20,102 nucleotides of DNA from positions 1 to 20,102 of the forward strand of contig JBKBOT010000029.1 of the NCBI GenBank assembly GCA_046293555.1, in the 5' to 3' direction. Within the stretch, counting starts at the first letter, position 1; every line of letters begins with the position of its first letter. This DNA comes from Pyrobaculum sp. (GTDB taxonomy: Archaea; Thermoproteota; Thermoprotei; Thermoproteales; Thermoproteaceae). Made by a program: the position numbers and the translations under genes. Below the pieces are notes generated by a model, which saw nothing but the letters and a program-made list of their open reading frames with translations, ran no database searches and was not told the DNA's origin. Shown one piece after another: positions 1-2,831 of this stretch.

Positions 1-36
1 CGAGAACTATCTTACTCGCCCCGACTCACTGGCCAT
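1..36 (-). CDS. 5' end of a frameshift-dependent gene, probably argininosuccinate synthase (alternatively LysX/ArgX ligase); runs off the window
   Basis: SD-like GGAGG precedes ATG at 36. Frame 0 reads MASESGRVR* (TAG 9-7). The -1 frame after G-GGG reads G-A-S-K-I-V-L-(GNN) with no start codon, resembling the ArgG N-terminus KIVLAYSGG. Only about 7 codons are visible. Confidence 0.5.
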
Positions 37-208
37 AATCCTCCACGTCGCCTCTAAACTCCTCAAGCGTGGCGGAACCTCCCTTAAGCCTCACGATATA
101 TCTGGTGCCACATGTGGGACAGCTGGCAATCTCGCCGTCCATCACGTCGCTGGGGAGCTCGAACTCCGAGCCACAGACGTTACACTGAACTACCAGCTTC
201 TGGCTCAT
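26..208 (-). CDS. lysW: LysW amino-group carrier protein (Zn ribbon)
   Basis: CNVC...CPTC motifs, acidic composition, C-terminus EDYGQ (canonical EDWGE), next to lysZ/lysY. Start placed at ATG 208, 27 nt from the start of the TATA box at 235, rather than at 217. Confidence 0.9.
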   Translation of the reverse strand: MSQKLVVQCNVCGSEFELPSDVMDGEIASCPTCGTRYIVRLKGGSATLEEFRGDVEDYGQ

Positions 209-227
209 GGGGGACATGTGGGACCTA

Positions 228-240
228 TATATAAACTTAA
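228..240 (-). promoter_or_regulatory. Internal TATA promoter for lysW and the downstream gene, overlapping the lysZ stop codon
   Basis: Minus strand TTAAG-TTTATATA, with ATG 27 nt downstream of the TATA start (leaderless geometry). Confidence 0.7.
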
Positions 241-1010
241 CGTATGTGCGTGCCGGCGCCAGCCAGCGCCGCGTCTATAGGCCTCTCCACAAGGCCGCTT
301 GAGATCACCACCTCTACCCCACCTCTAGCCGCCTCTGCCGCCATGAGGAGTTTTCTCCGCATGCCGCCCCACACCCCGTCCGATTTAGCCAACGCCTCTG
401 CCTCCCCCGCCGTAAGCCGCGGCACAACTCTGCCGCCAACCAACACGCCGTCGACGTCGCTGAGGATAACAAGCCTCTCCGCGCGGCTTCTCGCAGCCAC
501 CTCAAAGGCCAGCTGGTCCCCATCTACGTTTAGCAGCTCGCCTCTCTCAGAGAGGGCTATGGGGGCTAACACCTTTAGGGGGGGCGGCGCCAGCTTGTTG
601 ACATCTACCTCTGTTATACGGCCCACATAGCCGCCGTCTACCACCCTCTGCCGCCCCCTCTCGTCTACTACCAACACCCTCTCCTTCCGCCTGGCTTTAA
701 CCACGCCGCCGTCTGCGCCCGTGAGGCCCACAGCCTCTACCCCCGCCGCGTTTAGAAAAGCCACGATGTACTTATTGACCCAAGACATAGCCATGACGAA
801 AATCTTTAAGGTCTCGTAGTCCGTATAGCGGCTCACCACGCCGCCTGGGTGAGTTAAAAACCTGGGCTCTAACCCCACCCTCCTCAACAGCTCATTTACG
901 TAACACCCCCCGCCGTGTATCACAACGCTGTCTATATGGCTGGCTAAGTTAGAGAGGGCTTTGGTGGGGTCTTTACAGAAGACAGACCCCCCTATCTTTA
1001 CCACCATCAT
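237..1010 (-). CDS. lysZ: [LysW]-aminoadipate/[LysW]-glutamate kinase
   Basis: [27 protein letters not shown] and GGMRRKL motifs of the ArgB/LysZ amino-acid kinase family; ATGA overlap with lysY. Confidence 0.92.
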
Positions 1011-2062
1011 ACCGGCGCCAGCGGCGTCTGCCCAAGCCCCTCGTCTTCTGGAAAGCCCATGGCTATGTTAAAGGCCTGTACCGCCTGCCCCGCTGCGCCC
1101 CGCACCAGGTTGTCTATAGCGGCGAAAGTCACCACGCGGCTTAGCCTGACGTCTAGCTCAAAGCCTATATCCGCCATGTTTGACCCCAGTACGTACTTCA
1201 CGTTGGGGTATCTAGACAGCCCCAGCCGGTCTTTCACAAGGCGGATAAACCTGGAGTCGCCGTAGAGAGACCGGTAGTATTTCCACATGTCGGCCTCCGT
1301 GGGGAGCCTCTCTGTATACACGTGGCCAGAGGCGAAGATGCCCCTCACCAGGTCGACGGCGTGTGGGGTAAAGGCCACCCTCACGGGCCTTCCAGCCAGT
1401 AGGCTTAGCTCCTGCTCGATCTCGGCAATGTGGCGGTGGTGTACAGGCTCGTAGGGCCTCACCACATATGTCCTAAAGCTATGTAGATCCACCACGGAGC
1501 CCTCGGCCCCCGCGCCGCTGGAGCCAATCTTGGCGTCTACTACAGGCGGCGTCTGGCCGACAACGCCGTGTTTAGCCAGGGGGGCCAACATGAGGATAGA
1601 CGCCGTGGCCATACAGCCCGGGATAGCCACCAGCCTCGCCCCAACGAGCTCCTGTCTATGTAACTCCGGCAGGCCGTAAACAGCTTTAGCCAGGAGGTCT
1701 GGATATGGATGCGGCTGGGGCCACCTGTACCACTCCACATATGCGTCCGGGTCCTTTAGCCTAAAGTCTGCGCTGAGGTCAAACACCGCGGCGCCGGATT
1801 CATATAACGTGGGCACCCATTTTACCGACTCGCCGTGGGGGAGGGCGAGGAAGACCACATCTGCCTTCAACGCGGCGTCGACCGTGGGCTCTACGAACTT
1901 GAGCTGGGTGAAGCCCCGGAGGTGTGGATGTACCCTATAGACGTACTCCCCCCTGAACTTTCTAGAGGTGGCGCAAGCCACCTCCACCTCCCCGTGTTGG
2001 AGGAGGAGTCTCAACAGCTCCCCCCCAGTGAAGCCAGAGGCGCCTACAATACAGACCCTCAT
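1007..2062 (-). CDS. lysY: [LysW]-aminoadipyl/glutamyl-phosphate reductase (ArgC family)
   Basis: GASGFTG Rossmann motif, LALPHG, DLSADFR, YGLPE, PGC active site, [19 protein letters not shown]. Confidence 0.95.
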
Positions 2063-2729
2063 AGCAGCTCGGCCAACAGGAGTGCCTCCTCTCTATCTAG
2101 AGGCGGCACGGGGTCCACGTCTATGACGTACCACCTCTCCCCATAGTCGCCCAGCGTCACCCTGGCGTATTGAAGCTCCAGGTAGGCCAACAGGTCTGCC
2201 ACAACGCCGACTGCGTTTCTGGCGGTGGCAAATACGGTCTTTACGCCGCGGGGCCTCGGCACCACTATAGACGCCCTGGCTAGGGGGTTTTTCATATACA
2301 TCCGGTGCTCCACCACGCTTTTTGCCCCCTCCACGCTTGTCACCACGCCGTCTAGGCCAAGCCTCCAGGCGGTTAGTAAAAGCCAGGGCCGCTCCACCTC
2401 CACCTTCTCCACGATGGCGTCAGATGAGATAATGGCGTGAGGCGGGCCGAACCTCTGTATCCAATAGGCCCTATTGAGGGCAGAGATTATAGAGGTGGGG
2501 GGGTTGACAACCCTCCTGGCCATAGAGCCATACGCCACGGCGAGGTAGGGATTTCGAGTTCGCAACACGGCGGCGTCTAGTACCCCACTTATGGCCACCT
2601 CGGAGATGTTTAACACAACTGCCTTCAGGCCTCTGGCGGAGAGAGCCTCAGCTATATACTTCTCGGAGATCGTGGGGCTGTCTGTAAGGATGTAAATCGC
2701 CCCACTTTCCCCTCTGGCCCCGAGTCCAT
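2059..2729 (-). CDS. Degenerate LysX/ArgX (RimK ATP-grasp)-like protein, about 223 aa, requiring a -1 frameshift near the start
   Basis: The frame of the 2616 ORF stays open upstream (AIYILTDSPTISEKYIAEALSARG, LysX-like N-terminus) with no ATG/GTG/TTG. EGAKSVVEHRMYMKN resembles LysX/ArgX. The GSWG loop and EVN motif are replaced (LGLDG, DVD). The leaderless ATG 2729 is out of frame. Confidence 0.7.
2652..2729 (-). promoter_or_regulatory. Frame-0 leader ORF MDSGPEGKVGRFTSLQTAPRSPRSI* carrying three tandem NNG-GGG-(Pro/Lys/Arg) putative -1 shift sites
   Basis: ATG GAC TCG GGG CCA GAG GGG AAA GTG GGG CGA TTT ... TAG (2654-2652). Each G-GGG slip lands in the lysX-like frame. Confidence 0.75.
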
Positions 2730-2798: not shown

Positions 2799-2831
2799 AT
2801 GGATTCGGGGACAGCTCGCTACGTTGTGTGA
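2799..2831 (+). promoter_or_regulatory. Frame-0 leader ORF MDSGTARYVV* with a TCG-GGG-ACA(Thr) putative -1 shift site
   Basis: ATG GAT TCG GGG ACA GCT CGC TAC GTT GTG TGA. A -1 slip gives MDSG-DSSLRCVICG in the thrC frame. Confidence 0.75.

What the first reader, a model, noticed from the sequence alone, without database searches (positions are those of the whole stretch)
1..45. Hidden third instance: an Arg-codon slip site starting inside the lysW 3' end
Seen (minus strand): GGAGGATT ATG GCC AGT GAG TCG GGG CGA GTA AGA TAG. The -1 frame continues GGG GCG AGT AAG ATA GTT CTC G (ASKIVL) with no start codon of its own. It is absent from the ORF track. Inference: this is argG (KIVLAYSGGLD) or argX, gated by Arg alone. 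It suggests the motif also operates on SD-led internal cistrons, giving branch-specific control downstream of the shared pathway.
Basis: partly seen in the sequence, partly recalled or inferred. Interest (0 to 1): 0.85.

Follow-up and report, generated by a model that had tools for sequence, protein, structure and literature searches.

The report
Arginine-sensing frameshift start of argG
The arginine-making gene argG has no start codon of its own here and appears to be made only when a ribosome, waiting at a very rare arginine codon, slips back one base, which would be a kind of amino-acid sensor not described before.

Summary
On the minus strand an ATG (36..34) lies inside the last codons of lysW. 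It opens a 9-codon ORF (MASESGRVR*). The -1 frame runs open off the contig end as GASKIVL with no ATG/GTG/TTG.

Relatives show that this frame is argG (..KIVLAYSGGLDTT). The rest of the window's own argG sits at the edge of another contig.

Across the order, 49 of 52 argG loci have a start codon in the +1 frame followed 4-7 codons later by an arginine codon (CGA or CGG) exactly at the frame junction. 36 of 52 have no in-frame canonical start. CGA is the rarest Arg codon in this genome (2%).

The same device (TATA, ATG, 1-9 codons, G GGG, then a codon for the pathway's product) heads carA, trpD, a trpB-like gene, leuA, homocitrate and citramalate synthases, pheA, lysX, thrC and others in this genome.

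Best reading: a hungry-codon -1 slip of peptidyl-tRNA-Gly, working as a translational attenuator. No experiment shows it. Public annotations use ad hoc ATC/ATA/CTG starts instead. My literature searches found no description. High interest.

The parts
26..217 (-). lysW (amino-group carrier protein), ending ..GDVEDYGQ, stop TGA 28..26. The probable true start is the second ATG (208..206), 27 nt after TTTATATATA (235..226).
   Evidence: ORF; Pfam PF21344 Zn_ribbon_LysW, E 4e-9; TATA spacing read (inference).
39..44 (-). GGAGGA, a Shine-Dalgarno-like run 3 nt upstream of the leader ATG. It is made of lysW codons GTG-GAG-GAT.
   Evidence: Not independently conserved: GGAGGA in 13 of 17 abutting loci.
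7..36 (-). Leader ORF in the +1 frame relative to argG: ATG GCC AGT GAG TCG GGG CGA GTA AGA TAG = MASESGRVR*.
   Evidence: The same ORF (MASKSGR..) is present in 17 of 17 genus genomes.
19..22 (-). GGGG run, the proposed slip site. tRNA-Gly on GGG (21..19) can re-pair perfectly with GGG (22..20).
   Evidence: CGGGGCG is invariant in 26 of 26 aligned loci.
16..18 (-). CGA, an arginine codon in the A site at the slip: the proposed 'hungry' sensor codon.
   Evidence: CGA is 2% of Arg codons, 1.6 per 1000 codons, in 1074 long ORFs. The junction codon is CGA in 41 and CGG in 8 of 52 argG loci.
1..22 (-). 5' end of argG in the -1 frame: GGG GCG AGT AAG ATA GTT CTC G = GASKIVL.., cut by the contig end.
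   Evidence: the rest of argG is at G000:C4:3-839.
2652..2729 (-). Sister instance. Leaderless leader ATG GAC TCG GGG CCA GAG GGG AAA GTG GGG CGA.. (MDSGPEGKVGRF..*) with three G GGG sites followed by Pro, Lys and Arg codons. The -1 frame runs into the 220-aa first gene of the lysY/argC-lysZ/argB operon (to 2059).
   Evidence: All three sites are present in 15 of 17 genus loci and 8 of 8 loci of genus g3.
2799..2831 (+). Sister instance. Leader ATG GAT TCG GGG ACA .. TGA (MDSGTARYVV*). The -1 frame is threonine synthase (..GDSSLRCVICGAEY, to 3937).
   Evidence: 14 of 15 genus loci have TCG GGG AC(A/G); 9 of them also have G GGG ATT (Ile).

Best explanation
argG is expressed through a programmed -1 ribosomal frameshift that senses arginine.

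Proposed steps (inferred):
1. Ribosomes start at the ATG that overlaps the end of lysW and translate M-A-S-E-S-G.
2. They arrive with peptidyl-tRNA-Gly on GGG in the P site and the rare arginine codon CGA in the A site.
3. If Arg-tRNA is plentiful, CGA is read and the ribosome stops three codons later. The product is a 9-residue peptide and no ArgG.
4. If Arg-tRNA is scarce, the A site stays empty. The tRNA-Gly slips back one base on G-GGG with perfect re-pairing. GCG (Ala) enters the A site, and translation continues as MASESG-ASKIVLAYSGGLDT.., which is argininosuccinate synthase.

Shown: the sequence anatomy, its conservation, the identity of the gene, the rarity of CGA, and the sister sites with matching codons.
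Inferred: the slip itself and its response to arginine.
For: (1) Anatomy.

(2) Order-wide conservation. 49 of 52 argG loci have ATG/GTG in the +1 frame and CGA/CGG 4-7 codons later at the junction. 36 of 52 have no in-frame ATG/GTG/TTG upstream of the AYSGGLDT motif. The 3 exceptions have ordinary in-frame ATGs.

(3) The Arg codon is kept while the P-site codon and the argG-frame residues change: GGG-CGA, GGA-CGA, GAA-CGA, AAC-CGG and ATA-CGA.

(4) Stand-alone argG genes (7 loci of genus g3, 2 of g1) keep ATG..TCG GGG CGA about 27 nt behind a TATA box, which is the position of a leaderless start.

(5) In g3 the second leader codon varies CCC/CCT/CCA. That is silent in the leader frame but gives L/F/I in the argG frame. 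Downstream of GGGG the variation is at third positions of the argG frame.

(6) CGA is 2% of Arg codons.

(7) carA: 29 of 29 family genomes have TATA-ATG-TCT-AAG-GGG-CGA. In many genus-g1 loci an argG-type-frame stop (TAA) lies immediately before GGG, which pins the frame change to the GGGG.

(8) Genome-wide (families). The device heads these genes, with the codon after GGG in brackets:
- TrpD and a TrpB-like gene (TGG)
- IPMS (CTC)
- homocitrate synthase and LysX (AAA)
- citramalate synthase (ATT)
- CarA (CGA)
- prephenate dehydratase (TTT)
- transketolase-N (TAT, TTT)
- AroD+chorismate mutase (TAT)
- a TPP/ALS-like enzyme (GTA, CTC)
- ThrC (ACA)
- TrpRS (TGG)
- a CysK/M-like gene (TGT)

(9) Enrichment in an unbiased scan: GGGG/-1 gave 57 hits, against 15 for GGGG/+1 and 10, 10 and 15 for CCCC, AAAA and TTTT at -1.

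(10) trpD: 16 of 16 genus loci have ATG NNN TCG GGG TGG.

(11) thrC: ACA/ACG is silent in the leader frame but changes the ThrC-frame residue.

(12) Public protein records give ArgG orthologues four different ad hoc starts (MGASK.., MAYSGG.., MNRVV../MGRIA.., MALAYSGG..). By comparison with the DNA these correspond to ATC, CTG or ATA codons. So no consistent in-frame start exists.
Against: - No experiment. There is no N-terminal peptide, no ribosome profiling and no reporter assay.
- In-frame NNG-GGG is not avoided in ordinary genes of this genome. 57% of 10,350 GGG codons follow a G-ending codon, against 33% of codons overall. G GGG plus a slow codon therefore cannot be enough by itself. An extra feature must be assumed, such as closeness to the start, a very short nascent chain or the 5' end of the mRNA.
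- The argG site of this genus is not leaderless, unlike most sister sites.
- In genus g9 the P-site codon ATA cannot re-pair after a -1 move (it would face TAT). Simple slippage does not explain that lineage.
- Apart from CGA, the sensor codons are not rare (AAA 43%, TTT 62%, TAT 46%).
- In 6 of the 16 cases an in-frame GTG/TTG lies 1-3 codons after the site. For TGG and TGT this follows automatically. Ordinary initiation cannot be excluded there from sequence alone.
- No tRNA-Gly gene was found by aragorn in this incomplete genome.
- The window itself holds only 8 argG codons.
Confidence: 0.75

Rival explanations
1. argG starts ordinarily at a rare non-canonical in-frame codon (ATC, ATA, ATT, CTG or GTC), as public annotations assume. 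The short +1-frame ORF is then meaningless or a separate upstream ORF.
For: Table 11 allows ATA/ATC/ATT/CTG as starts. Public records begin MGASK.., MAYSGG.., MNRVV.. and MALAYSGG... In this window ATA (10..8) is in frame.
Against: No such codon is conserved. The codon after the lysW stop is ATC, GTC or AAC. The Ile/Val codon is ATA, ATC, ATT or GTA. The Leu codon is CTC, CTG or CTT. GTA, GTC, AAC and CTC are not start codons in any table (recalled). By contrast the +1-frame ATG and CGGGGCG are invariant in 26 of 26 loci. This reading also does not explain why the codon after GGG matches the pathway product in about 16 genes.
Confidence: 0.1
2. A short upstream ORF with arginine codons regulates argG without a frame change, through stalling or termination-reinitiation, in the manner of bacterial translational attenuation or the fungal arginine attenuator peptide.
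For: A short ORF with an Arg codon sits in front of an arginine gene. lysW, the leader and argG overlap closely, as in coupled genes.
Against: There is no start codon in the argG frame at which to reinitiate. The leader's stop varies in position, from codon 8 to codon 17 and beyond, and lies inside conserved ArgG codons. A ribosome stalled at CGA would cover the argG 5' codons, which would lower rather than raise expression on starvation (inference).
Confidence: 0.06
3. The frame is corrected in the RNA. RNA polymerase stutters on GGGG and adds one G to part of the transcripts.
For: One extra G would give the same protein. Homopolymer slippage is known in other systems (recalled).
Against: RNA-Seq contigs from 4 runs (one sample, one study) of a cultured relative cross the site with 0 gaps and 0 other letters over more than 500 nt. 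Caveats: contigs hide minority forms, and DNA may be present in such libraries. Four G is very short for stuttering (recalled). Lineages with GGA-CGA, GAA-CGA, AAC-CGG and ATA-CGA have no such run. This reading cannot explain the matching amino-acid codons.
Confidence: 0.04
4. The gene is broken, or the frame change is an assembly error at a contig end.
For: The site lies 20 nt from a contig end in a 145-contig assembly.
Against: The same arrangement is present in 17 of 17 genus genomes, including 9 single-contig genomes. The argG frame stays open for about 400 codons in relatives.
Confidence: 0.01

Closest known systems
Hungry-codon -1 ('leftward') frameshifting in E. coli (Gallant and Lindsley 1992). 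I saw it only as cited in PMC8211752, passages read.
   Same: One-tRNA slip of the P-site tRNA while the A site waits for a scarce aminoacyl-tRNA. No 3' stimulatory structure is needed.
   Different: It is known as an error in starved laboratory strains and reporters. The review PMC5009743 (passage read) states that for functional trans-frame products under starvation 'no examples are known'. Here the event would be the only route to the enzyme, and it is conserved.
prfB (release factor 2) autoregulatory +1 frameshift (recalled; mentioned in PMC5009743).
   Same: A short first ORF. Slow decoding of the A-site codon lets the P-site tRNA slip. The functional protein lies in the new frame. There is negative feedback by the end product.
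   Different: It is +1, not -1. The signal is a stop codon and RF2, not a sense codon and an aminoacyl-tRNA. It needs an upstream SD. It is one gene, not a set of pathways.
Bacterial leader-peptide transcription attenuation (trpL, pheL, leuL, thrL, hisL; recalled; pheL paper PMC3082878 seen in a search listing only).
   Same: A short leader ORF in front of an amino-acid operon carries codons for that amino acid and reads out tRNA charging through ribosome stalling.
   Different: The output there is terminator/antiterminator RNA folding. No such structure is conserved here. Here there is one codon instead of runs, the leader is fused to the enzyme, and the mRNAs are mostly leaderless.
Yeast Ty1 +1 frameshift at CUU-AGG-C (recalled).
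   Same: A rare arginine codon in the A site provokes a P-site slip.
   Different: It is +1, gives a fixed ratio for a retroelement, and is not a biosynthetic feedback.
Saccharolobus solfataricus fucA1 -1 frameshift (PMC1616953, listing and abstract seen; PMC8211752 passage).
   Same: A -1 programmed frameshift in a crenarchaeon.
   Different: It uses a tandem slippery heptamer in mid-gene joining two halves of an enzyme, with no sensing of an amino acid. The 2021 review calls it the only -1 case reported in Archaea.
Leaderless polycysteine short ORFs of mycobacteria (bioRxiv 10.1101/834739, abstract seen in a listing), and the fungal arginine attenuator peptide of arg-2/CPA1 (recalled).
   Same: Short ORFs at the 5' end of (leaderless) mRNAs sense one amino acid and control downstream biosynthetic genes. 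CPA1 is the carA counterpart.
   Different: Neither changes the reading frame. The attenuator peptide senses free arginine through the nascent chain.

Membership tests
Argininosuccinate synthase (ArgG), the downstream gene | Pfam Arginosuc_synth (PF00764) and Arginosuc_syn_C (PF20979) domains | tested here: met
   The relative's orthologous ORF scores E 5e-67 and 5e-82. Residues 118-396 of the window genome's own copy are at C4:3-839. The window itself holds only 8 codons.
Argininosuccinate synthase (ArgG), the downstream gene | N-terminal ATP-binding motif AYSGGLDT right after the start | tested here: inconclusive
   Present in all 52 relatives' loci. In this assembly the motif falls in the gap between contigs C29 and C4.
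Canonical -1 programmed frameshift (tandem slippage) | Slippery heptamer X XXY YYZ | tested here: not met
   The site is C GGG GCG A / TCG GGG CGA. Only the P-site codon can re-pair. Genus g6 has YTA AAC, which is close to a heptamer.
Canonical -1 programmed frameshift (tandem slippage) | Conserved 3' hairpin or pseudoknot 5-9 nt downstream | tested here: not met
   RNAalifold on 26 loci gives -1.3 kcal/mol, 7 pairs and 1 covarying pair.
Hungry-codon P-site slippage | The P-site codon re-pairs in the -1 frame | tested here: met
   G GGG in g1 and g3 (26 loci). GGA to GGG in g4. GAA to GGA and AAC to AAA are partial. ATA to TAT in g9 is not met.
Hungry-codon P-site slippage | A slow-to-decode A-site codon | tested here: met
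   CGA is the rarest Arg codon, 2%. One tRNA-Arg(TCG) gene was found.
Hungry-codon P-site slippage | Frameshift rises on starvation for the cognate amino acid | not testable with these tools
   Needs cultures, in vitro translation or ribosome profiling.
Leader-peptide attenuators | A short ORF with cognate codon(s) at the head of a biosynthetic gene or operon | tested here: met
Leader-peptide attenuators | Alternative terminator/antiterminator RNA structures | tested here: not met
   (argG only; other leaders not folded).
LysW carrier protein (upstream gene) | Zinc-ribbon globular domain | tested here: met
   PF21344, E 4e-9.
LysW carrier protein (upstream gene) | C-terminal acidic tail ending in Glu (EDWGE-type; recalled) | tested here: not met
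   It ends EDYGQ here and in G001. 25 of 27 relatives' loci end in E. Only one lysW was found in the genome.

The most novel reading that the evidence does not exclude
Thermoproteales run most of their amino-acid biosynthesis on a regulon-wide set of codon-specific frameshift attenuators.

- Each lead gene begins with a tiny, mostly leaderless ORF.
- A -1 slip at G GGG (or a lineage-specific equivalent) is triggered by an empty A site at a codon for the pathway's own product. That slip is the only way to make the enzyme.
- Leaders with several sites would act as OR gates for branched pathways: Pro/Lys/Arg for the LysW pathway, Ile/Thr for the thrC operon, Tyr/Phe for the aro operon and Val/Leu for the ALS-like gene.
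- The argG site adds a branch-specific Arg gate inside an operon.

This would be the first natural use of hungry-codon frameshifting as a sensor, and a main answer to how these archaea sense amino-acid supply.
Probability: 0.65. Interest if true: 0.95.

Novelty: new variant of a known kind. Interest (0 to 1): 0.9.

Why it matters
- **An unfilled class of recoding.** Hungry-codon frameshifting has been known for decades as a translation error. The 2016 reference review states that no natural example is known of it producing a functional trans-frame protein under starvation (PMC5009743, passage read). This locus and its sisters would fill that gap.
- **Regulation of amino-acid pathways in archaea.** How crenarchaea with leaderless mRNAs regulate amino-acid biosynthesis is poorly understood (from my own knowledge). 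Here is a concrete mechanism that can be tested directly. The predictions are simple: the junction peptides, and the effect of changing a single codon.
- **Gene annotation.** Public ArgG records of these genera start at four different invented non-canonical codons. Dozens of start sites per genome across the order are probably wrong.
- **A possible tool.** The device is a 12-30 nt, heat-stable, amino-acid-specific translational switch that could be reused.

Tried and rejected
- **Adjacent sequence.** Not possible: window position 1 is a contig end. I used relatives and contig C4 instead.
- **Downstream stimulatory RNA structure.** None conserved.
- **Anti-SD check.** No 16S rRNA is present in this assembly.
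- **tRNA inventory.** aragorn found only 35 tRNAs and no tRNA-Gly. This is uninformative: the genome is incomplete, and intron-rich tRNAs are a likely cause (recalled).
- **Avoidance of in-frame NNG-GGG.** I expected it if the slip were easy. It was not found; such pairs are enriched. This is kept as evidence against a simple model.
- **RNA contigs.** A stretch without cover (L035, about 1250-1305) and the different contig depths on either side cannot be read as a transcript start or as an expression level.
- **First genome scan.** It gave 316 unfiltered hits and was too noisy. The filter was tightened.
- **The other GGGG/-1 starts.** 49 starts were found in all. Most of the remaining 33 or so are internal to larger genes, because the Pfam match begins in mid-profile. 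Others have an in-frame start just upstream (GatE, PGM-like, GlyRS). These were rejected as chance.
- **Cmr4 (GTG GGG CGA).** Rejected as chance.
- **His, Met and Ser pathway leaders.** None turned up under my criteria.
- **The 220-aa first gene of the lysY/Z operon.** No Pfam or NCBIfam hit, and only a weak likeness to LysX.
- **The search of earlier findings.** Closed.
- **Literature.** Eight searches found no description. PMC1854888 mentions a frameshift only in a Geobacter trpB1.
- **Not looked at.** Supplements; anything outside this order.

Full report
**What is at the coordinates**

- On the minus strand the window ends with three genes of the LysW pathway:
  - lysY/argC, 2062..1007
  - lysZ/argB, 1010..237
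  - lysW, 217..26 (Pfam Zn_ribbon_LysW)
- The last lysW codons are GTG GAG GAT TAT GGC CAG TGA.
- The TAT-GGC pair contains an ATG (36..34).
- The frame that stays open to window position 1 is the lysW frame after its stop: GTC GGG GCG AGT AAG ATA GTT CTC G (VGASKIVL). It has no ATG, GTG or TTG.
- Position 1 is the end of contig C29 of a 145-contig genome.

**Which gene follows**

- I fetched the lysW region from 40 related genomes (30 of 41 genomes matched, counting the window's own).
- In 15 of the 27 loci with a lysW hit, the frame after the lysW stop reads (I/V/N)GASK(I/V)VLAYSGGLDTTVAIKWL.. for about 400 codons.
- That ORF has both argininosuccinate synthase Pfam domains.
- Residues 118-396 of the window genome's own copy lie at the very edge of contig C4. 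About 330 nt are missing between the two contigs.
- The gene is therefore argG, not argX.

**Survey of argG starts across the order**

- A search with the first 66 ArgG residues hit 55 of 62 genomes.
- I analysed 52 loci: 30, 20 and 2. I dropped 3 loci with truncated matches (G050, G051, G053).
- 36 of 52 have no in-frame ATG/GTG/TTG between the upstream stop and the AYSGGLDT motif. Two of these are at contig edges.
- 49 of 52 have an ATG or GTG in the +1 frame followed 4-7 codons later by CGA (41 loci) or CGG (8 loci), exactly where the frames must change.
- The three exceptions (genus g2, two loci; g8, one locus) have ordinary in-frame ATGs.

The leaders by genus:

| Genus | Loci | Leader sequence | Peptide |
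|---|---|---|---|
| g1 | 17 of 17 | ATG .. TCG GGG CGA | mostly MASKSGR.. |
| g3 | 9 of 9 | ATG CCN TCG GGG CGA | MPSGR.. (7 loci); MASKSGR (2 loci) |
| g4 | 5 | ATG GAT AAC CTG GGA CGA | MDNLGR.. (one locus has GAA CGA) |
| g7 | 3 | .. CTG GAA CGA | MDNLERR* |
| g6 | 8 | GTG .. YTA AAC CGG | |
| g9 | 7 | GTG GTY AWT ATA CGA | |

- The residues encoded at the junction in the argG frame differ between lineages (G-A, G-T, K-P, Y-T). The arginine codon in the leader frame is kept. Selection therefore acts on the leader frame.
- In g3 the second leader codon varies CCC/CCT/CCA. That is silent in the leader frame but gives L/F/I in the argG frame.
- Downstream of GGGG the variation falls on third positions of the argG frame. 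The leader's stop wanders from codon 8 to beyond codon 17.
- Nine argG genes that do not abut lysW keep the device about 27 nt behind a TTTATA box. That is the position expected for a leaderless start (the spacing rule is established knowledge for archaeal promoters).
- In the 15 lysW loci where argG abuts, the LysW Tyr codon is always TAT, which creates the ATG. Where argG does not follow, it is TAC in 6 loci and TAT in 2; the others have Phe or Trp. TAT is 46% of Tyr codons in this genome. These genomes are related, so this is not an independent count.

**Sister sites**

The same window holds two more.

1. The 220-aa first gene of the lysY/lysZ operon.
   - It sits behind the divergent promoter at about 2740-2760.
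   - It begins ATG GAC TCG GGG CCA GAG GGG AAA GTG GGG CGA. The -1 frame (GARGESGAIYILTDSPT..) runs into the gene, and the next in-frame start is 29-35 codons further on.
   - The three G GGG sites are followed by Pro, Lys and Arg codons.
   - All three sites are present in 15 of 17 genus loci and 8 of 8 g3 loci.
2. Threonine synthase.
   - It begins ATG GAT TCG GGG ACA.
   - 14 of 15 genus loci have TCG GGG AC(A/G).
   - 9 of them also carry G GGG ATT, an Ile codon.
   - The in-frame GTG seven codons later would cut off the first Cys of the CxxC pair (read; inference).

**Genome-wide scan**

- Criteria: an A/T hexamer at -34..-18, an ATG, a leader of at most 40 codons, the quadruplet within 10 codons, and a new frame open for at least 150 codons.
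- GGGG/-1 gave 57 hits (49 distinct starts).
- Controls: GGGG/+1 gave 15; CCCC, AAAA and TTTT at -1 gave 10, 10 and 15.
- After family assignment, the hits that lie at a protein's true N-terminus are these:

| Gene | Leader |
|---|---|
| TrpD | MASGW* |
| TrpB-like | MASGW* |
| isopropylmalate synthase | MASGLVS* |
| homocitrate synthase | MAREGK.. |
| CarA | MSKGR.. |
| prephenate dehydratase | MQGF.. |
| transketolase-N | MEGY..KGGFR* |
| AroD+chorismate mutase | MGY* |
| TPP/ALS-like enzyme | MSGVTSGL.. |
| LysX | MGK* |
| TrpRS | MGWMTL* |
| CysK/M-like | MRGC.. |

- ThrC and the 220-aa gene belong to the same set. Citramalate synthase (MSGIM*, at a contig edge) and argG bring the total to 16.
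- In all 16 the codon after GGG codes for a product of that pathway.
- Three assignments rest on inference. The aromatic role of the transketolase is recalled. The pathway of the 220-aa gene is inferred from its operon. Pro fits only if proline is made from ornithine, which is speculation.
- In 6 of the 16 an in-frame GTG/TTG lies 1-3 codons after the site. For TGG and TGT this follows automatically. Ordinary initiation cannot be excluded there.
- In the other 10 the next in-frame start is 6-35 codons inside, or absent.
- Conservation was checked for two of the sister genes:
  - carA: 29 of 29 family genomes have G GGG CGA. In many g1 loci a stop in the enzyme frame lies immediately before GGG, which pins the frame change to the run.
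  - trpD: 16 of 16 genus loci have ATG NNN TCG GGG TGG. In the 11 loci of g3 and g2, trpD is internal and has a normal ATG.

**Mechanism**

- The simplest reading is a one-tRNA, P-site slip.
  - With GGG in the P site and a slowly read codon in the A site, peptidyl-tRNA-Gly moves back one base onto an identical GGG.
  - A G-starting codon (Ala, Val, Asp or Glu) then fills the A site.
- CGA is the rarest Arg codon in the genome: 2% of Arg codons, 1.6 per 1000.
- No conserved RNA structure follows the site. This fits hungry-codon slippage as described in PMC8211752 (passage read).
- The logic is a negative feedback. With enough Arg-tRNA the ribosome makes a 9-residue peptide and stops. With too little it makes ArgG.
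- At the argG site, initiation at the internal ATG may use the GGAGGA 3 nt upstream, or re-start by ribosomes ending lysW 8 nt downstream. Neither is shown.

**What does not fit**

- In-frame NNG-GGG is common in ordinary genes. Something else must make the leaders special. My guess is closeness to the start: a very short nascent chain, or an mRNA 5' end inside the ribosome.
- Genus g9 (ATA-CGA) cannot re-pair after a -1 move.
- Most sensor codons other than CGA are not rare.
- Nothing here is experimental.

**RNA-level correction**

- RNA-Seq contigs from four runs (one sample, one study) of a cultured relative cross lysW, the ATG, GGGG and argG with no gap and no difference.
- Contigs would hide a minority form. 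This weakens the RNA-stuttering rival but does not exclude it.

**Knowledge check**

- Public ArgG records of these genera begin MGASK.., MAYSGG.., MNRVV.., MGRIA.. and MALAYSGG... Compared with the DNA, these are ATC, CTG and ATA read as starts, inconsistently between orthologues. None carries the leader residues.
- The 2021 review of archaeal recoding says that only one -1 frameshift has been reported in Archaea, fucA1 (PMC8211752).
- The 2016 review says that for hungry-codon frameshifting giving functional products 'no examples are known' (PMC5009743).
- Eight full-text searches found nothing on this. The library lacks most subscription journals, so this is not proof of absence.

**Verdict**

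- The site is one member of what looks like a conserved, genome-wide set of amino-acid-specific frameshift attenuators.
- I file it as a new variant of autoregulatory programmed frameshifting. It has the prfB-like logic, the hungry-codon mechanism and the leader-peptide sensing principle.
- It is not a canonical tandem-slippage site and not a transcription attenuator.
- Confidence in the frameshift-sensor reading is about 0.75. Interest is 0.9.

Noticed in passing
window 26..31 (-): LysW ends ..EDYGQ, with Gln (CAG) as the last residue, here and in one same-genus genome (G001). 25 of 27 relatives' loci end in Glu, the residue to which the pathway intermediates are attached in known LysW proteins (recalled). 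Only one lysW was found in this genome.
   Followed up: partly
window 2059..2721 (-): The first gene of the lysY/lysZ operon (220 aa after the slip site) has no Pfam or NCBIfam hit. It is only faintly like LysX (E 0.005 over 71 aa). It is conserved in 50 of 62 genomes of the order. It may be a divergent ArgX/LysX-type partner of LysW.
   Followed up: partly
window 2697..2729 (-): One of the three sensor codons in that gene's leader is Pro (CCA), beside Lys and Arg. This would make sense if proline is made from ornithine in these organisms. Not tested.
   Followed up: no
window 206..235 (-): lysW seems to have its own TATA box (TTTATATATA, 235..226), 27 nt before its second ATG (208..206). lysW-argG may therefore be a separate leaderless transcript, and lysW may be 60 aa, not 63. 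Relatives' LysW alignments start at residues 4-5.
   Followed up: partly
G000:C16 (TrpRS, locus L123) and G000:C12 (CysK/M-like, locus L130): A tRNA synthetase (TrpRS, leader MGWMTL*) and a cysteine-synthase-like gene (leader MRGC..) carry the same kind of leader with the cognate codon. Both also have an in-frame GTG right after the site, so this is uncertain.
   Followed up: partly
L063, L077, L079 and others (genus g9); L048-L068 (genus g6): The argG leaders of these genera use ATA-CGA and YTA-AAC-CGG instead of G GGG. ATA cannot re-pair at -1. YTA AAC resembles the viral U UUA AAC heptamer (recalled). The mechanism may differ between lineages.
   Followed up: no
L098 (G011), thrC 5' region: One genus genome has an aberrant thrC 5' end (GTG ACG GGG ATT CGG AGA TGA, with the frames shifted differently). 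It is possibly a variant leader or a damaged gene.
   Followed up: no
G000:C69:2594-2896 (locus L114): A leader MAAGW.. (TATA, ATG GCC GCG GGG TGG) heads a 100-codon open frame with no family hit, near a contig end. It may be another tryptophan-pathway gene.
   Followed up: no
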